This document shows positions 2,062 to 47,387 of a DNA stretch of 51,215 bases, piece by piece. The first letter of the stretch is position 1; each line of letters opens with the position of its first letter. The translations under genes and the position numbers were made by a program. Location: positions 1-51,215 of the IMG/VR virus record IMGVR_UViG_3300035128_000044, one strand, 5' to 3'. The notes under the pieces were generated by a model. That model was not told the origin of the DNA, did no database searches, and was given only the letters and a program-made list of their open reading frames with translations. This DNA is from a virus. Lineage: Duplodnaviria > Caudoviricetes.

Positions 2062-2358
2062 ATGTTTGATTGGGTTATTTATGCGATAATTGTGGTTGCA
2101 ATTTGTGTTACAGGTATGGTTATGATGCTTGCTTCGTTAGTAAGAGAGACTTGTAACCGATTAACTAAAACCAATGAACAACTTATGATATTGATTTCTA
2201 CTCGTAGTGGTAATGAAGCTGGGGCCAGAGCTTTAGTAGCCTCCGCAAGGTTGCCTCGTGGTAATTTATCAGGGGTTGTAAAACAGGAAAGCAAAAAAGA
2301 GGTAGAAAAGGAAAAAGAAAAACTGGGTGTTAGCTTTACAAAAGGTTATGGATTATGA
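2062..2358 (+). CDS. Small membrane protein
   Basis: N-terminal hydrophobic helix, GAAAGG RBS. Confidence 0.7.
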   Translation: MFDWVIYAIIVVAICVTGMVMMLASLVRETCNRLTKTNEQLMILISTRSGNEAGARALVASARLPRGNLSGVVKQESKKEVEKEKEKLGVSFTKGYGL

Positions 2359-2897
2359 TTATTGATGGAATAAAACTTAAAGTTCATTCAGTTTACACTA
2401 ATTATGCCATTAGTAAATGTGGCAAGGTTTATGCTTTGCCAAGATTAACTCCACATGGTCATTATCGAAAAGGTCATTGGATGGCCCTAAATAGGATAAA
2501 TAAATATGGCCATTTAGATGTCCAATTATACATCCAAGGAAAAATAATTCATAAGTTGGTACATAGGCTCGTGTTGGAGACTTTTGTTGGCCCATGCCCA
2601 AAAGGAATGGAATGTCGTCACTTGGATGGAAATCCATCAAATAATAACTTAGATAATTTGAAGTGGGGAACCAAATCCGAAAATACCTATGATGCAGTAA
2701 GACATGGTACATTTTCCGGGTTGATTAAAGGAGATAAGAGGTCTAACGCTATCTTAACAGACAATAAGGTTAGAATCATAAAATATTTACGAAACATAGC
2801 TAAGTTTTCCTTGAAAGATGTTGCTTGGCAGTTCGATATTTCAATTCAACATGTACATAATATTTGTAAAGGTTATATTTGGAGCCACGTAACATGA
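2355..2897 (+). CDS. NUMOD4/HNH homing endonuclease
   Basis: YAISKCGKV, VHRLVLETFVGPCP, CRHLDGNPSNNNLDNLKWGTKSEN, C-terminal HTH-like tail. Confidence 0.9.
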   Translation: MIIDGIKLKVHSVYTNYAISKCGKVYALPRLTPHGHYRKGHWMALNRINKYGHLDVQLYIQGKIIHKLVHRLVLETFVGPCPKGMECRHLDGNPSNNNLDNLKWGTKSENTYDAVRHGTFSGLIKGDKRSNAILTDNKVRIIKYLRNIAKFSLKDVAWQFDISIQHVHNICKGYIWSHVT

Positions 2898-26500: not shown

Positions 26501-26632
26501 AGCAAAGGTATTTCATCTTCCTATAGACCCCTGTTTGAACAGGTGATTGGTGAAGCATCCCTCGGCAAGATGACCGAAGACATCCAGATGAATGGTTTAG
26601 GAGCCTTAGAAAATTATCAAAATATTTTTTAA
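23513..26632 (+). CDS. Large internal virion/ejection protein
   Basis: 1039 aa helical protein, DYFPH motif, last gene of the structural module. Confidence 0.6.
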   Translation: MAKEYDLNQDTPFGIASADFPVTFYDRPGLMFSNLLRGDVDGLTRAMLSPDTMSPNQLKSIQNVLLKGKKPNPILKTILDVATNPLVIAGLAVGLWKFPVGSTSSLLNLRRGLLPKATAMGARASYLHDAMLNLRHIPGMFENVLGVTKETTEFASKHWSKLDDILTKAGPLSKAEGFAVSARLDGLHKADHFLVKYLRDEPEWKAFMGGKDVPIAVGVQNNMSPKLISVSDKLRTWFNGIRGELMKSPDVKSRIKNAVEAKGLKFGEDVVDYFPHQGAYNKYYKASLRGTTGVNYRKWLHKEVAEKIGREEVQRMGGMIPNLDELAELENTGVVKPGFTNMVRTVLGRKTNELSELVKKNWYDIKSLGLDEAHERIEFIRRMEKTPYAKHLGSPKRMRDTLDSMVGALQESAFKGPDAVKTELLEIGKTLAEPANYSLNPWEATGRYINSTSSAYAWHGTGLGKKIMDTINKPGVFREAPHLESYLLDDILPHIQGLKSFPEMTRSLNYSVRKEKIFNWLNNHPMIDGIVGSDRKKWLLDYFGKSKALSSSEALGGTIAHHFYLTALGANLSSASKNSLQTFVTTINSVGAKGMWYGLKGVAGQEGLLSKMQKYLGYMAKGVKHEEAFNTAFPEFVKDAGNASKIVDAMLAGDVAREGYARIVQKTGVEKIKKVLMAPFASSEAGNRLLAYYAGRNSHIAQNASKLVEATEAAKTALFTEAGEVGQTLNMFANFTGGPLGLPRALINMAPQYRQFMHFPLRFMGYLHGSLRLGADPNKLDWGTIGRAMAGSTTAYFAARNLLGADISGGLLTGALPLPQYEKSPFYPWPLVPPVAQIAGASVKSLMTGDMSGMGDVAGLLLPGGIAARRAYKSLSPKFADYKNPTAEGRVPLYNKDGSLIGAMTPMELTLRAVGLRPMSASAESGAAKWLVSQRDRIRSYRRDYTMALFQNDTTKAEKINREFQKVYPELGKIQIKKSDITALENRRQISRLQRISKGISSSYRPLFEQVIGEASLGKMTEDIQMNGLGALENYQNIF

Positions 26633-26669
26633 TTTTTCTCTTGACTTTCCTTTTTGATTTTGATATTAT
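26631..26669 (+). promoter_or_regulatory. Sigma70-type promoter, repeat copy 1
   Basis: TTGACT-N17-TATTAT; shares AATTTTTCTCTTGACTTTCC with the copy at 26890. Confidence 0.7.
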
Positions 26670-26703
26670 AAAATAAAAACTTAAAATTATACTGGAAAGA
26701 AAA

Positions 26704-26889
26704 ATGAAAATTGTATCCAAAACAGTTCATTTGGGCAAAGATGCTTATGTTCGTATAAATGCAGATGGTTCTTTTTCTGCATTAGCTTTTGGCTCTTTTA
26801 GTCCAAATCAAGTTGGTCTTAGATATGGATGGGTTTCAATTAAAAGAGAAGATTTACCCACTGATGTGATAAAATTATTAGAGAACTAA
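26704..26889 (+). CDS. Small hypothetical protein between duplicated promoters
   Basis: 61 aa ORF with RBS. Confidence 0.65.
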   Translation: MKIVSKTVHLGKDAYVRINADGSFSALAFGSFSPNQVGLRYGWVSIKREDLPTDVIKLLEN

Positions 26890-26928
26890 AATTTTTCTCT
26901 TGACTTTCCATTTCATACTTTATATAAT
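26890..26928 (+). promoter_or_regulatory. Sigma70-type promoter, repeat copy 2, driving the ncRNA cluster
   Basis: TTGACT-N17-TATAAT. Confidence 0.8.
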
Positions 26929-26954
26929 ACAATTGTAATTGAAAAGTTAATATT

Positions 26955-27081
26955 GGTCGAGCAGCGTGTGGGAAACGATTGAGGGTATAGTCAAACTGGA
27001 AGCTCTATATCGCAGCACATTAACTTTTATAAGTTATAACTCTAAGCTACCCAGCAGCAGGTTCAAATCCTGCCTCGACCA
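26955..27081 (+). ncRNA. tRNA-like RNA (acceptor stem plus T-arm, expanded middle)
   Basis: GGTCGAG/CTCGACC+A 7-bp acceptor stem; GCAGG-TTCAAAT-CCTGC T-arm; no canonical 7-nt anticodon loop. Confidence 0.7.
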
Positions 27082-27180
27082 TTTGGGACGCGACACACCA
27101 AGCCGAAGCCATTATATGAGAAATGAGGCAAAAAGGCGTGACTTAGCCTTTCAGGGTAAAGGCATTATTTTGAAAAGTTA

Positions 27181-27414
27181 ATAATAAAACTGGATTTTCC
27201 AGTAATACGAAATCCTGTGAGCTACATGGTGGCTACAACAAAGTAAGCTTTCCTTACTTGTGCCAAAGTAGGAAGGAAGAACGATTGTAGAGTCGGTATA
27301 AGGGTAAAAGGTGTATATGGCAATAAGACCTTTGAGAGATAGTACCTCCATTAAAATCAACTAAATCCTGTTGAGTTACTGAGATGTCATTGCATGTGGA
27401 TGGGTAGTTATTAT
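27181..27414 (+). ncRNA. Candidate structured ncRNA
   Basis: No credible ORF; several hairpins and complementary ends; preceded by a second TTGAAAAGTTAATA. Confidence 0.45.
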
Positions 27415-27442
27415 AAAAATAAAATCTGAAAGGAAAAGAAAA

Positions 27443-27713: not shown

Positions 27714-28589
27714 ATGCCAGTTATAAAATATCAACATCAGAGATTAAATAGAAGTAGTTTGGTTATTATAGATTCAGCCAATGAAATTATTGAAGAATAC
27801 GAAGATGCAGGCTATGATTTAACCTTGCGACAATTGTATTATCAATTTGTGGCAAGAGATATTATTCCCAACAATGATAGGGAGTATAAGAGACTTGGGG
27901 GCATCATCAGCAATGCAAGATTAAATGGATTGATAGATTGGGACGCCATAATAGATAGGACTCGTTATCTAAGGAAAAATTCGCATTGGGAGTCTCCTCG
28001 TGAAATTATTGAGTCCTGTGCTGAGCAGTTCAAAATCGATCTTAGAGAAACACAAAAGGACTATGTCGAAGTCTGGATAGAGAAAGATGCGTTAATAGGT
28101 ATAGTGGATAGTGTTTGTGGACCTCTTGATGTTCCATGCTTTTCCTGTAGAGGTTATGTAAGTCAAAGTGCTATGTGGAGAGCGGCCAAAAGGTTGCTGG
28201 ATAAAGAAGTTTTCCACGATACACATATTTTACACTTAGGGGACCATGACCCAAGCGGTATTGATATGTCGCGTGATATAAAAGAACGTTTACATATGTT
28301 TGGCTCTAAGGTTGAGGTTCATCGAATAGCCTTAAATATGGACCAAGTAAAGGCTCAGAGTCCTCCACCAAATCCAGCTAAAATTACCGATAGCAGATGT
28401 GATTCCTACATTAAACGCTTCGGAACAAAGTCTTGGGAGTTGGATGCCTTGGAACCTTCTTTTTTGGATAATTTAATTACTGGAAGGATTAATTCTTTTA
28501 CGGACCAAGAAGAATTTGAGAATCAACAATTTATTCAAGACGAACACAGACAAACAATTATGCGTATAGCTAATAATATGGAGGAGTAA
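27714..28589 (+). CDS. Topoisomerase VI-A/Spo11-like (DUF2399-type) TOPRIM protein
   Basis: LTLRQLYYQFV winged helix with Tyr; VEVWIEKDAL, HLGDHDPSGIDM, WELDAL. Confidence 0.8.
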   Translation: MPVIKYQHQRLNRSSLVIIDSANEIIEEYEDAGYDLTLRQLYYQFVARDIIPNNDREYKRLGGIISNARLNGLIDWDAIIDRTRYLRKNSHWESPREIIESCAEQFKIDLRETQKDYVEVWIEKDALIGIVDSVCGPLDVPCFSCRGYVSQSAMWRAAKRLLDKEVFHDTHILHLGDHDPSGIDMSRDIKERLHMFGSKVEVHRIALNMDQVKAQSPPPNPAKITDSRCDSYIKRFGTKSWELDALEPSFLDNLITGRINSFTDQEEFENQQFIQDEHRQTIMRIANNMEE

Positions 28590-28781
28590 ATGACACCAGA
28601 ACTATACAATTTAGTTCAGGAAACAATATCAGGAGGCTGTATTCTTGACATTAATATTATAAATGACTCCGACTTTATTGATTACATGAATGCTATAGAC
28701 TCTATTGAAAAGATTACTTCTAAACAATTAGTAGCAAAATGTATTATTGACTTTCAAAGATTTGAGGACTTGAGAAATTAA
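28590..28781 (+). CDS. Hypothetical protein
   Basis: GGAGGAG RBS. Confidence 0.6.
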   Translation: MTPELYNLVQETISGGCILDINIINDSDFIDYMNAIDSIEKITSKQLVAKCIIDFQRFEDLRN

Positions 28782-28799
28782 ATATAAAGGGAAAGAAAA

Positions 28800-28988
28800 A
28801 TGAGTTTTAGAAAAACAAAAGCAGGAGTTACAATATGTCCATTTTTCACTTGGACATCCGAGAATATAGGCGAAATGTGCAAAAGTGAAAGTCACGAAGA
28901 CGATGTGAACCTAACCCATTGTACACATAAGGATAATCCAGACCACCTTGAAGGAAATTGTACAATAAAGAATTGCCCCTTATTATGA
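28800..28988 (+). CDS. Small Cys/His-rich protein
   Basis: CPFF...HCTH...EGNC...CPL. Confidence 0.6.
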   Translation: MSFRKTKAGVTICPFFTWTSENIGEMCKSESHEDDVNLTHCTHKDNPDHLEGNCTIKNCPLL

Positions 28989-42486: not shown

Positions 42487-42655
42487 TAGAAAAACACTTA
42501 GAAAAATTCTGCTGGTTATTCTTTTTCCGGCTTGGCTCCTTTTACTAATCGCGGCTATACTTTCCGATTTAATGGTTTTAGCTATGCACGACGAATGGGA
42601 CGGCCAAGCGGAGAAGTTAATTAGAGATTTGAAAGAAGCCCTATTCCGCTCATAA
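42479..42655 (+). CDS. Small membrane protein
   Basis: Hydrophobic ILLVILFPAWLLLLIAAIL. Confidence 0.55.
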   Translation: MNNRKTLRKILLVILFPAWLLLLIAAILSDLMVLAMHDEWDGQAEKLIRDLKEALFRS

Positions 42656-42679
42656 TTTTGTTCAGTATGTTCCGTTAAA

Positions 42680-42746
42680 ATTATAGGACTTGTGGTTATC
42701 GGACTGAGACATTCGTTTCTGGTTATCGGACATTATATTATTGGAC
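42680..42746 (+). repeat. Four direct copies of RTTATNGGAC
   Basis: Copies start at 42680, 42695, 42722 and 42737. Confidence 0.75.
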
Positions 42747-42829
42747 TTTATGAAAACGGAAAAATTCCGATATTGTTTTAGACAAATAGCCGGGTAAAAA
42801 ATTCCCCGAAAAAAAAATTTATTTTTCTC

Positions 42830-42857
42830 TTGCATTTTCATTTTTACAAGTTATAAT
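42830..42857 (+). promoter_or_regulatory. Sigma70-type promoter of the early-type region
   Basis: TTGCAT-N16-TATAAT, A/T-rich UP element, ATTTTTCTCTTG shared with 26631 and 26890. Confidence 0.65.
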
Positions 42858-42929
42858 ATGAGTATATTCAATATTGTTTTACAGGTATACAGGTGAAACT
42901 TGTAAATGTTTTTTTAGGAGGTTTATAAA

Positions 42930-43139
42930 ATGGCTGAACAACAAATAGATAATTTAATTAATTACTCGCATTGTAAGAAATTCGCTTTACAATATGCAAA
43001 CGACCATAGAACTGGCTGGAAACCAAAACAAGTAAGCAAACAGTTTTTAGATGATTTGAATATTAAGGTTAGGATGTTAATCACGGGTGCAATTCAAAAA
43101 CATCCCACAAAAGGAAAAACAATTAAGGAACTACAATAA
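42930..43139 (+). CDS. Putative histone-fold protein
   Basis: LINYSHCKKFA...QVSKQFLDDLNIKVRMLITGAI......KTIK resembles the alpha1-L1-alpha2-L2 pattern of bacterial/phage histones. Confidence 0.6.
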   Translation: MAEQQIDNLINYSHCKKFALQYANDHRTGWKPKQVSKQFLDDLNIKVRMLITGAIQKHPTKGKTIKELQ

Positions 43140-43322
43140 ATGATACATGAAGACACGACAACGGACTTAGGACATGATTTATATTTTTGTACCACTTGCG
43201 GTAAATATCATTCGCATAATTCTATTAAATTAGAACACCGCAAAATAGGTAAGGGACTTCAATTAGTCCCAGTTTGTCCAAATCCGGCTTGCAATAGCCA
43301 AAACATAACTAAATTCAAATAA
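43140..43322 (+). CDS. Zinc-ribbon protein
   Basis: CTTC...CPNPAC. Confidence 0.6.
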   Translation: MIHEDTTTDLGHDLYFCTTCGKYHSHNSIKLEHRKIGKGLQLVPVCPNPACNSQNITKFK

Positions 43323-43334
43323 CAGGGGGACATT

Positions 43335-43949: not shown

Positions 43950-43969
43950 AACCCCCCTTTTCATCTTAA

Positions 43970-44008
43970 AGCACGTCCCATAATAACACCTCCTATTTGG
44001 GACGTGCT
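43970..44008 (+). other. Hairpin with CACCTCCT (anti-SD-like) loop
   Basis: AGCACGTCCCA/TGGGACGTGCT 11-bp stem. Confidence 0.6.
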
Positions 44009-44047
44009 ATCCTCTTAAAAAATTTTCAATCCTCCGCAGTTTTTTAC

Positions 44048-44076
44048 TTGTTTTCTGGTTACAAATAGACTATACT
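44048..44076 (+). promoter_or_regulatory. Sigma70-type promoter
   Basis: TTGTTT-N17-TATACT. Confidence 0.5.
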
Positions 44077-44094
44077 TTAATCAGGGGAGACGAT

Positions 44095-44232
44095 ATGAAA
44101 GAGCAAGAATATATTTGTAGTTGTGGCCAAGTAACGAAAGAGACGGAATTAAAAGGGGTTAAGGACGACAAAGGCTATTTCAGGTTGTCTTGTCCGAAAT
44201 GTCATAGTGGAAATATTAGGTTGAAACAATAA
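44095..44232 (+). CDS. Zinc-ribbon microprotein
   Basis: Not in the track; YICSCG...SCPKCHS; GGGGAG RBS. Confidence 0.6.
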   Translation: MKEQEYICSCGQVTKETELKGVKDDKGYFRLSCPKCHSGNIRLKQ

Positions 44233-44574
44233 GGGGAAAAACATGGGAATTATTTGGGTTTTAGCTTTTTGGGGTATTTTCTATTTTTTTGAACAGTGGG
44301 GGAAAAAATGAAATATTTACTTACAAAAATCGATAGTGATTTTTATAATGTGTTAATACTGGCAATACTTGCTTATTTGAGCTTGTGCTAATATGAATAT
44401 ACCGGAAAATTGTAAAAAGTGTGTTGCTCAAAAAGTGTGTGACCATTTGGCCGGTTGTGCTTTTAAGGTGCGTAAAGGTAGAAGGAAAAGCAAGGTCGAA
44501 CGGATTAACGGCCAACACGAAACAGAACAGGAAAAGAGAAACAAGAAATTTGATTTTTAATTGGAGGTTTTAAT

Positions 44575-45440: not shown

Positions 45441-45850
45441 AAGAGCGAGAAATAAAAGCCTTGATATTTATCGAAAACTTTTTAGGTCTGGTCGATGACA
45501 TGAAACAGTGATACGTCAAACCAGAAGAAAAGAAGTTGTTTGAAACTATAGTAGAAGAACTGAAAGAATATGAACAAAGAAGCAAACAACATAATAGATA
45601 TGGAAGATGATACAGAATTTAAGGCCGGGCTTACGGGCAAGCCAGATATGTTTTCGGATGAACTACGTTATTTATGGGATAAAACTATTTTACAATAAAA
45701 CCTTTTTTGTTGTTTCTCTTCAATGGTTGGATTAACTTTAATGTTGTCCAGCTTTTTTTATTTGTCAATTCCTGGGGTGCTAAACATCCTAAAAAATATT
45801 TTGACGGCTTAGGTGGCGCCCTATGAATTCGATTTTTTGGAATGGGTATA

Positions 45851-45880
45851 AAAAAAAAGCCGCCCTTTTATAGACGGCTT
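45851..45880 (-). terminator. Intrinsic terminator, minus strand
   Basis: AAGCCGTCT-loop-GGGCGGCTT followed by a T-run; near copy at 47326. Confidence 0.7.
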
Positions 45881-45901
45881 GGTAAGTGGGGTTTAGTGTG
45901 T

Positions 45902-46072
45902 TTATTTTATGTTAGCAAATATATTATAAATTGTTGCCATTAAAATATGTTTTGGATTCTCAACTAAAAAACATATCACCCTTGCAATTTCGTCCTCGTT
46001 TAGTTCTTTTTCTAATTTCTTAATAGATTTACATATCTTATCAATATTGAAATGTTTTGCTTTTGTTTTCAT
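45902..46072 (-). CDS. Small hypothetical protein
   Basis: Not in the track; MKTKAKHFNIDKICK..., AAGGGG RBS, own promoter-like sequence upstream. Confidence 0.6.
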   Translation of the reverse strand: MKTKAKHFNIDKICKSIKKLEKELNEDEIARVICFLVENPKHILMATIYNIFANIK

Positions 46073-46188
46073 GTTTTTCCCCTTAAAAAGTTTTTGTGTT
46101 TAGTTTTCAAATAGCACTATTAAAAGTATAAATCATAAATGAGTAAAAAGTAAATTATTTAGAATAGATTAATACACTTTTTAATAAT

Positions 46189-46353
46189 TTAATTGCCGCC
46201 GTTTAAATAATGAACTCTTTCAGCTGCTTCTTTTTTGGAGTTGTAGTCGGATTCTGAAACCCAAATTCCTTTGGGTGTATAAAATCCTACCGTCCAAACA
46301 TCTTTGCTTGGATTTTCATCGGTTTGAAAATATGTTTGCAAATATACGTACAT
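46189..46353 (-). CDS. Small conserved phage protein
   Basis: Not in the track; MYVY...VWTVGFYTPKGIWVSESDYNSKKEAAERVHYLNGGN. Confidence 0.7.
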   Translation of the reverse strand: MYVYLQTYFQTDENPSKDVWTVGFYTPKGIWVSESDYNSKKEAAERVHYLNGGN

Positions 46354-46486
46354 GTTTTTTTCCCTTCATAAAATAATTATAAGTTGTGTTTAGAGATTCT
46401 TTATAAAGTATAACCTATTAATAAGGAAAAAGCAAAATAAATTTGTCAAAGATAGAGAATATTTTTTTTGTGGCGGTAGCGTGTGC

Positions 46487-46885
46487 GTCCAATAACACGA
46501 TTGTGGGTCTGATAATAAATCATTCTACAAGGTAGAAAAAACGGGAGTGTGTTCGGTGCTCATAATTTTTACAATAAGAACCGATAATCTCGCGGAATTA
46601 CCGCAGGAATGTCACGTCCCATAACCTGAATGAAACATAACAATTATTCTCGGACGTGCCCCCATTGATTACAGGCTGCATTCCGCATCATTATCGGACG
46701 TGTTAATCTGTTCTATGCTTTATTCATAATGAAACCAACACATTATAGGACTTTATAGTCCGATAACCATTCGACATTCCAATAACAACTCGATTTCCTA
46801 CGTGGGATTCAAGTCGATTTCGTGCGGAGTCCAATAATATCCTGGATTCTCGACCCCGTCTGACCCCCTGAAGTCGTCCGATAAT
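46487..46885. repeat. Cluster of seven RTTATNGGAC copies in both orientations
   Basis: Copies start at 46487, 46616, 46690, 46742, 46758, 46829 and 46876. Confidence 0.7.
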
Positions 46886-47050
46886 GGTAGGCAAAGACCC
46901 TTCATATTTAGGACAACCCTTAAAATTCTCCATTCTACTTAGTAGAATATCCCCGATTCTACTTCGTATTCGTTCTAACGTTTAGAATTTTTCCTTCATA
47001 TTCTAAATTGTAGAAAAAGTGCACCCCCGTTATTCGCTCAAAAATGAGAG

Positions 47051-47325
47051 GTGTACCCAGATGTGTCCTATGTAAAAATGTCACATAGGGTAAACTAATT
47101 TCTTATATAACAAGAGTTTACATTCGTGTACCCTATGTGCCTATGTATTTTCCTATTTGCTTTTTCACAACAAGAAAATTATATATAGGAAAGAAAAAAG
47201 AGAAAATAGCTGGGCACATAGGACACCAAATTTTTTAATCTCTGTAACATCTTTATTTATAATAACTTACAAGCGTTTTTCTGTACCCTATGTAATTTTT
47301 TACATAGGACACGCATAGGATACAC
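47051..47325. other. Putative replication origin with mirror-symmetric CCTATGT/ACATAGG iterons
   Basis: Seven exact plus one variant heptamer in inverted arms around an A/T-rich centre, downstream of the helicase. Confidence 0.7.
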
Positions 47326-47355
47326 AAAAAAAAAGCCGCCTCGCGGGAGACGGCT
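47326..47355 (-). terminator. Intrinsic terminator of the helicase operon
   Basis: AGCCGTCT-CCCGCG-AGGCGGCT followed by a T-run on the minus strand. Confidence 0.75.
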
Positions 47356-47387
47356 ATATGGAGGGTATGAAGAGTGAAATGACTTAA

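What the first reader, a model, noticed from the sequence alone, without database searches (positions are those of the whole stretch)
26955..27081. 127-nt tRNA mimic with perfect acceptor stem and T-arm but a ~60-nt insert in place of the anticodon loop
Seen: GGTCGAG pairs with CTCGACC followed by discriminator A. The T-arm is GCAGG-TTCAAAT-CCTGC. A short D-like hairpin reads CGT-GTGGGAA-ACG. GGGTA (26983) can pair with TACCC (27048), followed by a 4-nt variable loop, enclosing about 60 nt that includes a TAACTT-TTAT-AAGTTA hairpin. It sits 27 nt after a near-consensus promoter. It is too short for tmRNA or a group I intron tRNA and lacks G3:U70. Inference: a tRNA-like ncRNA, e.g. a decoy for anticodon nucleases or synthetases, an RNase P/Z processing tag, or a tRNA carrying an unusual intron.
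Basis: partly seen in the sequence, partly recalled or inferred. Interest (0 to 1): 0.72.

Follow-up and report, generated by a model that had tools for sequence, protein, structure and literature searches.

The report
Interrupted tRNA-like gene on a phage cassette
A wetland phage carries one tRNA-shaped gene whose upper half is intact but whose anticodon arm is replaced by about 60 extra bases, on a small repeat-flanked cassette that a sibling phage lacks, so it is a real but optional oddity of unproven function.

Summary
Window 26955-27081 has a 7/7 Watson-Crick acceptor stem, a canonical T-arm, a D-like hairpin with GG and discriminator A. That combination occurs once in the window and in 0 of 200 simulated sequences. 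It is not a canonical tRNA, tmRNA or any Rfam family. ARAGORN with introns calls tRNA-Ile(UAU) with a 47-nt intron, but only marginally: 126 of 300 interior shuffles are also called, and 33 of 300 pass a threshold the native sequence fails. No bulge-helix-bulge motif is present.

New finding: the gene, its 3' trailer and a terminator-like hairpin form a 217-bp cassette (26953-27169) flanked by an exact 14-nt direct repeat. A contig from a second wetland metagenome joins 26938 to 27170 exactly at that repeat, giving an empty site. The insert also holds an inverted copy of the repeat's 10-nt core.

Best reading: an accessory, interrupted tRNA-derived gene, probably of tRNA-Ile(UAU) ancestry. It would give a tRNA-shaped RNA that cannot decode as encoded. 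Splicing, a decoy role or a dead gene cannot be told apart without RNA data. No homologue was found.

The parts
26890..26928 (+). Promoter P2. A conserved 20-nt block AATTTTTCTCTTGACTTTCC holds the -35 TTGACT (26900-05); a 17-nt spacer leads to the -10 TATAAT (26923-28). It lies outside the cassette and is retained in the sibling's empty site.
   Evidence: the same 20-mer with TTGACT-17-TATAAT, followed by an AAGGAG ribosome-binding site, stands in 2 unrelated viral contigs
26939..26952 (+). Direct repeat 1 (TTGAAAAGTTAATA), the left cassette boundary. It lies in the predicted 5' leader.
   Evidence: family D5, 100% identity, spacing 231; joint with 14 letters fitting both sides
26955..27081 (+). 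tRNA-like gene, 127 nt including discriminator A
26955..26961 (+). Acceptor stem 5' strand, GGTCGAG
   Evidence: 7/7 Watson-Crick with 27074-80
26965..26977 (+). D-like arm: 3-bp stem CGT/ACG with 7-nt loop GTGGGAA (GG present)
   Evidence: shuffling it abolishes ARAGORN calls: 4 of 300 against 126 of 300
26983..26987 (+). GGGTA, candidate 5' strand of an anticodon-stem equivalent. It pairs with TACCC 27048-52. ARAGORN instead uses AGGG 26982-85 with CTCT 27040-43.
   Evidence: not resolved
26988..27047 (+). The roughly 60-nt insert in place of the anticodon loop (ARAGORN's 47-nt 'intron' is 26987-27033). Its first 14 nt resemble the sequence that follows repeat 2 (12/14).
   Evidence: (D6)
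27019..27028 (+). ATTAACTTTT, the exact reverse complement of the 10-nt core of both direct repeats. It could pair with the 5' leader.
   Evidence: (I15), 40: the exact 10-mer occurs 3 times in 51 kb, all at this locus
27021..27036 (+). Hairpin TAACTT-TTAT-AAGTTA inside the insert
27046..27055 (+). Possible mini variable arm GCT-ACCC-AGC. This is an alternative to TACCC acting as a stem strand.
27057..27073 (+). T-arm GCAGG-TTCAAAT-CCTGC
   Evidence: (Rfam tRNA positions 47-63, 13.6 bits)
27074..27081 (+). Acceptor 3' strand CTCGACC plus discriminator A. No CCA is encoded; TTT follows.
27082..27145 (+). 3' trailer within the cassette
27146..27169 (+). Terminator-like hairpin GCCTTT-CAGGGT-AAAGGC followed by ATTATTTT
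   Evidence: weak RyhB-terminator-like Rfam match, E 0.79
27170..27183 (+). Direct repeat 2 (TTGAAAAGTTAATA), the right cassette boundary
26631..26686 (+). Promoter P1, a paralogue of P2 (75% over 56 nt; first 20 nt identical). It drives a 61-aa ORF (26704-26889).
   Evidence: (D1)

Best explanation
This is a tRNA-derived gene on a small accessory cassette of a bacteriophage. The upper half of a tRNA is intact: acceptor stem, D-like arm with GG, canonical T-arm and discriminator A. The anticodon arm is interrupted or replaced by about 47-60 nt, part of which looks derived from the phage's own promoter-leader sequence.

Shown: the anatomy; the 217-bp cassette bounded by exact 14-nt direct repeats; an allele without the cassette in a sibling phage population; and the absence of any canonical tRNA, tmRNA or Rfam match.

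Inferred: host sigma-70 RNA polymerase starts at P2, about 20 nt upstream, and mostly stops at the hairpin and T-run at 27146-27169. RNase P cuts at G26955 because the acceptor/T-arm minihelix is intact. The 3' end is trimmed and CCA is added. A stable tRNA-shaped RNA of about 130 nt results, and as encoded it cannot read a codon.

Its ancestry is probably a phage-type tRNA-Ile(UAU), the tRNA this AUA-rich phage would profit from most. The cassette is gained or lost by recombination between the short repeats. I take the present product to be a non-decoding pseudo-tRNA or tRNA mimic that the phage can do without.
For: Anatomy and significance. The D-arm contributes: 4 of 300 against 126 of 300 calls.

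Not canonical: default ARAGORN gives 0 genes. Rfam gathering thresholds give 0 hits. At E<=10 only the T-arm matches, at 13.6 bits against a cut-off of 29.

Cassette: 14-nt exact repeats 231 nt apart. An X2 contig (306 nt, depth 13.7) joins 26938 to 27170 with 14 letters fitting both sides, and carries 49 nt of the promoter and 237 nt downstream at about 98% identity. X2 depth over 26963-27113 is 0.13.

Insert related to the backbone: the exact 10-mer of the repeat occurs 3 times in the window, always here, and once inverted inside the insert. The first 14 nt of the insert match the sequence after repeat 2 at 12/14.

Transcription unit: an 11/12 promoter and a terminator-like site. The same promoter block precedes an SD-led gene in two unrelated viral contigs.

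Ile(UAU) ancestry: the 24-nt T-arm plus acceptor string has 2 exact matches among GTDB species genomes, and both are tRNA-Ile(TAT). The best phage tRNA hit is a tRNA-Ile(TAT). ARAGORN -i names anticodon tat, which arises in only 3 of 300 shuffles. AUA makes up 331 of 887 Ile codons, about 25 per 1000 codons.

No other tRNA is found in the window.
Against: No homologue of the element, its insert or its trailer was found, so there is no covariation and no sign of selection. No transcript data exist.

An intact upper half is equally expected for a freshly broken gene. The Ile(UAU) pointers are post hoc and partly depend on a common T-arm: cyanophage tRNA-Arg genes match 23/24 as well.

ARAGORN's anticodon stem is weak (4 pairs, one G-U, plus a G-A mismatch). 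The call vanishes at 103% of the default threshold, where 33 of 300 shuffles still pass.

C8 and G14 replace the usual U8 and A14, and there are 1-3 extra nucleotides at the position-26 junction. A strong promoter and a dedicated terminator are more than a dead gene needs. The direction of the indel (gain or loss) is unknown. X1 is probably the window's own sample, so the element rests on one population.
Confidence: 0.5

Rival explanations
1. It is a working tRNA-Ile(UAU) with an intervening sequence. The 47 nt between positions 32 and 33 are removed after transcription by an unknown bacterial or phage route, giving an 82-nt tRNA with a 12-nt variable arm that reads the phage's abundant AUA codons.
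For: ARAGORN -i model: loop T|TTATAA and mini variable arm GCT-ACCC-AGC. Five Lactobacillus Herelleviridae phages carry 91-93-nt tRNA-Ile(TAT) genes with long variable arms, loop TTTATAC and a mismatched 27:43 pair. AUA is 37% of Ile codons. It is the only tRNA-like gene in the phage. The Lak megaphage preprint (10.1101/356790, passages read) reports phage tRNAs with 'enigmatic introns', with alleles both with and without them.
Against: The call is marginal: it is lost at the 103% threshold while 33 of 300 shuffled interiors pass, and 126 of 300 shuffles get some intron-tRNA call. There is no bulge-helix-bulge motif; the best candidates lack an inner helix or would destroy the D-stem. At 47-60 nt the insert is far below group I size, and no intron or ribozyme family matches. 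Promoter, terminator and SD signals point to a bacterial host, which has no known endonuclease route. Parts of the insert resemble the local phage leader, which is odd for an intron imported with the gene.
Confidence: 0.2
2. It is a selected, non-decoding tRNA mimic. The RNA keeps the tRNA elbow and acceptor end so that it can bind or be processed by tRNA-handling proteins: RNase P, CCA enzyme, a synthetase, or a tRNA-directed defence nuclease or toxin. It would act as a decoy or sponge, or as a processing signal that cuts the downstream replication-module mRNA free. The 10-nt leader-insert pairing would switch between folds.
For: The upper half is perfect while the lower half is not tRNA-like. 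It has its own strong promoter and terminator. There is 10/10 complementarity between leader and insert, unique in the genome. T4 rnaC, a 139-nt stable RNA with a T-arm, an acceptor-like stem and a long insert, shows that phages keep such RNAs.
Against: A sibling at about 98% local identity lacks it. There are no homologues, hence no evidence of selection. No defence or anti-defence genes were recognised next to it. The leader-insert match may be a recombination scar rather than a functional helix.
Confidence: 0.2
3. The locus encodes a 71-aa protein (GTG 26966 to TAA 27181), and the tRNA likeness is incidental.
For: The frame is open across the whole cassette and ends inside repeat 2. phmmer against 1.84 billion representatives gave 2 hits: E 3.8e-5 to a 1265-aa integrase with six INT_rpt (PF14882) units, and E 7e-4.
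Against: The score is summed over 6 near-identical repeat units, each of about 25-28 bits in BLASTP with gaps. Pfam finds nothing in the ORF at E<=1. No relative was found in viral contigs. The start is GTG, with no purine-rich ribosome-binding site upstream. A 12/12 Watson-Crick tRNA frame with a canonical T-loop is not expected in a coding sequence.
Confidence: 0.03
4. The virus infects an archaeon (DPANN-like), and the element is an ordinary archaeal intron-bearing tRNA spliced by the BHB endonuclease.
For: Both exact matches to the 24-nt 3' end among GTDB species genomes are archaeal tRNA-Ile(TAT) genes. The source is a wetland. The TTTATATA stretch at 26918-25 could serve as a TATA box.
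Against: No acceptable BHB motif was found. Both promoter copies keep TTGACT-17-TAtaAT while their spacers diverge. The same promoter block precedes an AAGGAG-led gene in other phage contigs. The terminator has a hairpin and a T-run. Searching the whole window against the two archaeal genomes matched only the tRNA 3' end, with no spacer-like hit. The gene content is typical of bacterial phages.
Confidence: 0.04

Closest known systems
Canonical bacterial or phage tRNA (Rfam RF00005), especially the long-variable-arm tRNA-Ile(UAU) of Lactobacillus Herelleviridae phages (3-521, ENFP1, Semele, Lpa804, LpeD)
   Same: 7-bp acceptor, discriminator A, D-loop GG, and a T-arm identical to that of phage 3-521. 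A single accessory tRNA matching a codon the phage uses heavily.
   Different: There is no 5-bp stem with a 7-nt anticodon loop; about 60 nt stand in its place. Default ARAGORN fails and the Rfam score is 13.6 against 29 bits. The 5' half finds no tRNA in phage records.
Phage T4 rnaC (species 1 RNA, 139 nt; annotated as a small stable RNA)
   Same: It is phage-encoded, of similar size, and ends in a canonical T-arm abutting an acceptor-like 3' strand that pairs with the 5' end, with long extra hairpins in between. ARAGORN -i also forces an intron-tRNA call onto it. That its function is unknown is recalled, not read.
   Different: No sequence homology beyond the T-arm: 10 of 200 shuffles align as well. 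The T4 acceptor is imperfect and lacks a GG D-arm. T4 rnaC sits in a tRNA cluster, not on a repeat-flanked cassette.
Lak megaphage tRNAs with 'enigmatic introns' (bioRxiv 10.1101/356790; passages read, supplement not seen)
   Same: Over-long phage tRNA genes in a bacterial host, with extra sequence in the tRNA body and alleles with and without the extra sequence.
   Different: In Lak phages the indel is the intron itself; here the whole gene comes and goes. Lak introns recur, identical, across genomes; this insert is a singleton. Table S6, which holds intron sizes and positions, could not be seen.
tmRNA tRNA-like domain
   Same: Acceptor stem plus T-arm plus a reduced D region, with the anticodon arm replaced by other RNA.
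   Different: U3:A70 rather than G3:U70. At 127 nt there is no room for a tag frame with pseudoknots. There are no ARAGORN tmRNA or Rfam tmRNA hits.
PeSL regulatory cassettes of T4-type phages (PMC2839356, abstract read)
   Same: Repeated promoter and stem-loop motifs flank small dispensable modules, and recombination between the repeats gives insertion/deletion differences between sibling phages.
   Different: A different phage type and different motif sequences. Here the repeat is a 14-nt leader piece. Mini-circles were not tested.

Membership tests
Canonical tRNA (RF00005) | 7-bp acceptor stem with a discriminator base | tested here: met
   7/7 Watson-Crick pairs, then A
Canonical tRNA (RF00005) | T-arm: 5-bp stem, 7-nt loop TTCRANN, G53:C61 | tested here: met
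   GCAGG-TTCAAAT-CCTGC; Rfam positions 47-63
Canonical tRNA (RF00005) | D-arm with G18 G19, U8 and A14 | tested here: inconclusive
   3-bp stem, with GG and A21 present, but C8 and G14 in place of U8 and A14
Canonical tRNA (RF00005) | Anticodon arm: 5-bp stem with a 7-nt loop, U33 and R37 | tested here: not met
   47-60 nt lie between the candidate stem strands. Default ARAGORN finds 0 genes. The model score is 13.6 bits against a gathering score of 29.
tmRNA | G3:U70 alanine identity pair | tested here: not met
   T3:A70
tmRNA | Tag reading frame and pseudoknots; match to a tmRNA model | tested here: not met
   ARAGORN tmRNA search gave 0; no Rfam tmRNA family at E<=10
Archaeal-type intron tRNA | Bulge-helix-bulge motif (3-nt bulges around a 4-bp helix) at the exon-intron junctions | tested here: not met
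   Exhaustive scan of all junction pairs. The best candidates have 0-1 inner pairs, rely on G-U-rich helices, or disrupt the D-stem.
Group I intron in a tRNA anticodon loop | Self-splicing core of roughly 200 nt or more; match to the Rfam group I model | tested here: not met
   The insert is 47-60 nt, and no intron or ribozyme family matches at E<=10. The size threshold is recalled knowledge.
Intron-bearing tRNA-Ile(UAU), ARAGORN model | After removing the insert, an anticodon arm that scores above what random interiors give | tested here: not met
   The call is lost at the 103% threshold, while 33 of 300 interior shuffles pass; 126 of 300 pass at 100%
Intron-bearing tRNA-Ile(UAU), ARAGORN model | Spliced, CCA-tailed, Ile-charged RNA in vivo | not testable with these tools
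   No RNA run is listed for this DNA
T4 rnaC-like phage stable RNA | Sequence or structure homology to rnaC | tested here: not met
   Global alignment is no better than 10 of 200 shuffles; only the architecture is shared
Repeat-mediated phage cassette (PeSL-like modular shuffling) | Module bounded by direct repeats, with a sibling genome showing a single repeat copy and no module | tested here: met
   14-nt repeats. The X2 contig joins 26938 to 27170 with 14 ambiguous letters.
Repeat-mediated phage cassette (PeSL-like modular shuffling) | The same cassette at other sites or in other genomes; circular excision products | tested here: inconclusive
   No second copy in the window and none in viral contigs by exact 20-25-mers. 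Circles cannot be tested with contigs.

The most novel reading that the evidence does not exclude
The cassette is a self-contained, recombinationally mobile module that makes a non-decoding tRNA mimic. RNase P and the CCA enzyme mature it. Its enlarged anticodon domain alternates between a local hairpin and a 10-bp helix with its own 5' leader. The mature RNA would then serve the phage in one of two ways: as a decoy or sponge for a tRNA-directed host defence enzyme, or as a processing switch for the replication-module transcript that starts at the same promoter. That would make it a phage tRNA-mimic accessory gene of a type not yet described, related in principle to the long-unexplained T4 species 1 RNA.
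Probability: 0.15. Interest if true: 0.75.

Novelty: new variant of a known kind. Interest (0 to 1): 0.45.

Why it matters
Phages carry tRNA genes and a few tRNA-shaped stable RNAs whose purpose has stayed unclear for decades. Recent work ties phage tRNAs to escape from tRNA-cleaving defences. This locus offers a cleanly delimited natural pair: the same phage backbone with and without a 217-bp cassette whose only content is a tRNA-shaped gene with an intact enzyme-facing half and a destroyed decoding half.

If the RNA is stable and has an effect, it would be a compact model for tRNA mimicry in phage-host conflict, or for a non-canonical way of removing tRNA inserts in bacteria. If it is a dead gene, it documents how short leader repeats shuffle small modules in an uncultured phage lineage. 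It also warns that intron-mode tRNA finders call such relics at chance level.

Tried and rejected
Detection by standard tools
- Default ARAGORN found 0 genes. Rfam at gathering thresholds gave 0 hits. At E<=10 over 2 kb and over 251 nt, only chance-level hits appeared besides the T-arm.

Search for homologues
- blastn of 1 kb against 50,697 phage records gave no match. An exact 25-mer of the T-arm plus acceptor had 0 hits in viral contigs.
- Relatives were fetched through the neighbouring 291-aa protein: 8 viral loci and 20 metagenome loci, all at or below 56% identity. None carries the element by regex, blastn or ARAGORN with and without introns. One spurious 473-nt 'intron' call arose in L003.
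- Three whole relative records had no tRNA over the cut-off. L012 and L016 were not held and so were not searched.
- The 71-aa frame used as a degenerate probe found no relative.
- The gapped pattern of repeat core plus its complement gave 39 loci. All were chance inverted repeats without a tRNA frame.
- A 20-mer of the insert and a 21-mer of the trailer each had 0 hits.
- The 5' 38 nt against phages gave 5 records, none a tRNA.

Structure
- The BHB scan was negative. Constrained folds could not choose among three closing helices; they lie within 7 kcal/mol.
- Folds of the whole predicted transcript and of the downstream untranslated region are not unusual: z = -1.41 and -1.10.

Expression
- No RNA holder is listed among the sequencing runs, so nothing can be said about transcription.

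Neighbouring genes and host
- The neighbouring 291-aa protein as a recombinase: no PDB sequence hit and no Pfam hit. A single-sequence AlphaFold model was useless, pLDDT 34. Its conserved EKD and GDHDPSG motifs look Toprim-like from recalled knowledge, not tyrosine-recombinase-like.
- No integrase, reverse transcriptase or transposase was found among the 64 ORFs scanned.
- Archaeal host link: only the tRNA 3' end matches the two archaeal genomes.
- L083 and L084 share the promoter 20-mer but nothing else with the window.

Not available
- Earlier scan findings were not open.

Full report
Context. The window is a complete IMG/VR virus record of 51,215 bp, linear, with an estimated completeness of 94% and 38.5% G+C. 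Its genes are those of a tailed bacteriophage:
- large terminase, an HNH endonuclease, a P22-like portal, tail and fibre proteins and a weak holin hit;
- then a replication module with a UDG-PolA fusion, an SbcC-like ATPase, a PD-(D/E)XK nuclease, a Sak4-like protein and a D5-type primase-helicase.

No integrase, reverse transcriptase or transposase was recognised among the 64 ORFs scanned. The phage is far from any isolate. Its polymerase reaches at most about 25% identity over part of its length, and the portal finds nothing. The finding lies in a 550-nt non-coding gap (26890-27442) between the structural/lysis block and the replication block.

Observation. The frame is far beyond chance. 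An all-Watson-Crick 7-bp acceptor directly abutting a 5-bp T-stem with a TTCRANN loop occurs once in the window on both strands, and in none of 200 first-order Markov simulations. The 128-nt RNA folds at -38.8 kcal/mol (z = -3.19, 0 of 200 shuffles as stable) and keeps both arms. The D-like hairpin is part of the signal. When the whole interior is shuffled, ARAGORN -i makes 4 calls in 300. When the first 24 nt are kept, it makes 126 in 300.

What it is not. Default ARAGORN finds no tRNA or tmRNA in the window. Rfam 15 gives no hit at gathering thresholds. At E<=10 only the T-arm matches the tRNA model, at 13.6 bits against a cut-off of 29. Position 3:70 is U:A, so the alanine/tmRNA identity pair is absent. 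An exhaustive scan for bulge-helix-bulge motifs over all junction pairs found nothing convincing. The insert is far too short for a group I intron, and no ribozyme family matches.

The intron reading. The model has 82 nt of exon, a 47-nt insert between positions 32 and 33, an anticodon stem AGGG/CTCT with a G-U pair and a G-A mismatch, and a 12-nt variable region that can form GCT-ACCC-AGC. This call carries little weight:
- With acceptor, D and T arms fixed and the remaining interior shuffled, 126 of 300 sequences also receive an intron-tRNA call.
- The native call disappears at 103% of the default threshold, where 33 of 300 shuffles still pass.
- Five genuine long tRNA-Ile genes still pass at 115%.

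Three things keep the reading alive:
- The named anticodon, tat, arises in only 3 of 300 shuffles.
- The 24-nt T-arm-plus-acceptor string has just two exact matches among GTDB species genomes, both tRNA-Ile(TAT). The best phage tRNA hit is a tRNA-Ile(TAT) of Lactobacillus phage 3-521. That gene belongs to a small family of 91-93-nt, long-variable-arm tRNA-Ile(TAT) genes in five Herelleviridae phages, with loop TTTATAC and a mismatched 27:43 pair.
- The phage uses AUA for 331 of 887 isoleucine codons, about 25 per 1000 codons, and has no other tRNA gene.

I therefore take tRNA-Ile(UAU) as the likeliest ancestry. These pointers are post hoc, however, and cyanophage tRNA-Arg genes match the same T-arm region nearly as well.

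The cassette. The repeat finder shows an exact 14-nt direct repeat, TTGAAAAGTTAATA, at 26939-52 and 27170-83. Between the copies lie the tRNA-like gene, a 64-nt trailer and a terminator-like hairpin with a T-run (27146-69).

Only two public runs hold this DNA, both wetland metagenomes. X1 is probably the source sample and is not independent. X2 holds 12% of the sampled words. Laid on the window, one X2 contig (306 nt, depth 13.7) reads 26890-26938, then jumps to 27170-27406, skipping 231 nt, with 14 letters that fit either side. This is exactly one copy of the repeat and no cassette. X2 depth over 26963-27113 is 0.13. The indexed word length is 31, which is longer than the 14-nt repeat, so collapse of the repeat in assembly is unlikely to explain the joint. 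This is inference.

The cassette is therefore an insertion/deletion polymorphism between sibling phage populations, and it is dispensable. The direction of the event is unknown. The same contig's 11 loose letters upstream of 26890 equal window 26620-30. This suggests that the sibling also lacks the preceding unit (promoter P1 plus a 61-aa ORF, 26631-26889), which is itself bounded by a 20-nt exact promoter repeat. [quoted passage not shown]

Links between insert and backbone. The 10-nt core of the repeat, AAAAGTTAAT, occurs exactly three times in 51 kb: in both repeats, and inverted at 27019-28 inside the insert. The insert's first 14 nt (ATAGTCAAACTGGA) match the 14 nt beginning in repeat 2 (ATAATAAAACTGGA) at 12/14. 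The P1 leader has the same ...ACTGGAA motif.

Two readings follow. Either the insert was built from local leader DNA by rearrangement, which favours an interrupted gene, or the leader-insert complementarity is a functional RNA helix. That helix would cross the acceptor stem, so the two folds would be alternatives. I cannot tell the two readings apart.

Expression signals and host. P2 is an 11/12 sigma-70 match that ends 27 nt before the gene. P1 and P2 keep TTGACT-17-TAtaAT while their spacers diverge. The same 20-nt block, followed by TATAAT and an AAGGAG-led gene, stands in two otherwise unrelated viral contigs. Together with the hairpin terminator, this points to a bacterial host. The archaeal alternative gets no support: the whole window searched against the two archaeal genomes matches only the tRNA 3' end.

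The protein rival. A 71-codon frame (GTG 26966 to TAA 27181) spans the cassette. It has no purine-rich ribosome-binding site upstream, no Pfam hit at E<=1 and no relative in viral contigs. In 1.84 billion representatives it has two weak hits. The better one (E 3.8e-5) sums six near-identical INT_rpt units of an integrase. I treat this as repeat-inflated chance.

Closest known. In architecture the nearest thing is T4 rnaC (species 1 RNA, 139 nt), annotated as a small stable RNA. Its fold shows a canonical T-arm abutting an acceptor-like stem, with long hairpins in between, and ARAGORN -i also forces an intron-tRNA call on it. There is no homology: 10 of 200 shuffles align as well. Lak megaphage tRNAs with 'enigmatic introns' (10.1101/356790, passages read) are the nearest precedent for inserts in phage tRNA genes of bacterial hosts.

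Verdict. The element is a real, tRNA-derived, tRNA-shaped gene on a repeat-flanked accessory cassette. As encoded it cannot decode. My probabilities are:
- 0.5 that it is an interrupted tRNA gene whose end-processed transcript is a non-decoding pseudo-tRNA;
- 0.2 that the insert is removed to give a working tRNA-Ile(UAU);
- 0.2 that it is a selected mimic or decoy;
- the remainder for a protein, an archaeal intron tRNA or something else.

No homologue was found by any route tried, so there is no covariation test. No RNA run is available. Both gaps are named under next steps.

Noticed in passing
window 26631-26889: A second repeat-bounded unit lies just upstream: promoter P1, whose first 20 nt are identical to P2, plus a 61-aa ORF with a very weak Cro-like Pfam hit (E 0.074). 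The X2 contig's 11 loose letters before 26890 equal window 26620-30, which suggests the sibling phage lacks this unit too.
   Followed up: partly
window 27170-27406: The non-coding stretch downstream of the cassette is about 98% identical in the X2 contig (4 substitutions and 1 indel in 237 nt). X2 pieces over the flanking genes are about 86-92% identical, though they may come from more than one relative. This points either to a recently exchanged segment or to a constrained leader or RNA. The fold z-score is only -1.1.
   Followed up: partly
window 27714-28589: A 291-aa protein of PHROG 6247 ('DNA topoisomerase') has no Pfam or PDB sequence match. Fifteen aligned relatives keep invariant E, K and D in an EKDA block and an invariant GDHDPxG block, which looks Toprim-like (recalled). 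A single-sequence AlphaFold model failed (pLDDT 34).
   Followed up: partly
L073-L077 (Lactobacillus Herelleviridae phages 3-521, ENFP1, Semele, Lpa804, LpeD): These phages carry a family of 91-93-nt tRNA-Ile(TAT) genes with a covarying long variable arm, which is class-II-like and unusual for isoleucine. The gene is not annotated in the Lpa804 and LpeD records.
   Followed up: partly
L083 3587-3625; L084 1876-1915 (minus strand): The exact 20-nt promoter block AATTTTTCTCTTGACTTTCC, with a TATAAT 17 nt after TTGACT, recurs in two viral contigs that share no other similarity with the window.
   Followed up: partly
window 42487-43334, 43950-44574, 45441-47387: There are three further large stretches without ORFs of 80 aa or more; the last is 1.9 kb. 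It lies between the rightward genes and the leftward primase block and may be an origin or regulatory region.
   Followed up: no
window 2355-2894: An HNH endonuclease gene sits between the large terminase and the portal. It may be a packaging-associated or a homing HNH.
   Followed up: no
window 26938-26965, 28770-28803 and 27711 onward (X2 contig, depth 6.66): Another X2 contig joins a 28-nt match (repeat 1 plus the first 11 nt of the tRNA-like gene) to 28770-28803, and then goes back to 27711. The sides are short (28 and 34 nt) at 80% likeness, so this may be a mosaic relative or noise.
   Followed up: no
window 27905-27991 (minus strand): A sub-threshold Rfam hit to yeast snoRNA snR75 (27.9 bits against 40, E 0.0028) lies inside the 291-aa gene. 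It is taken as chance.
   Followed up: no
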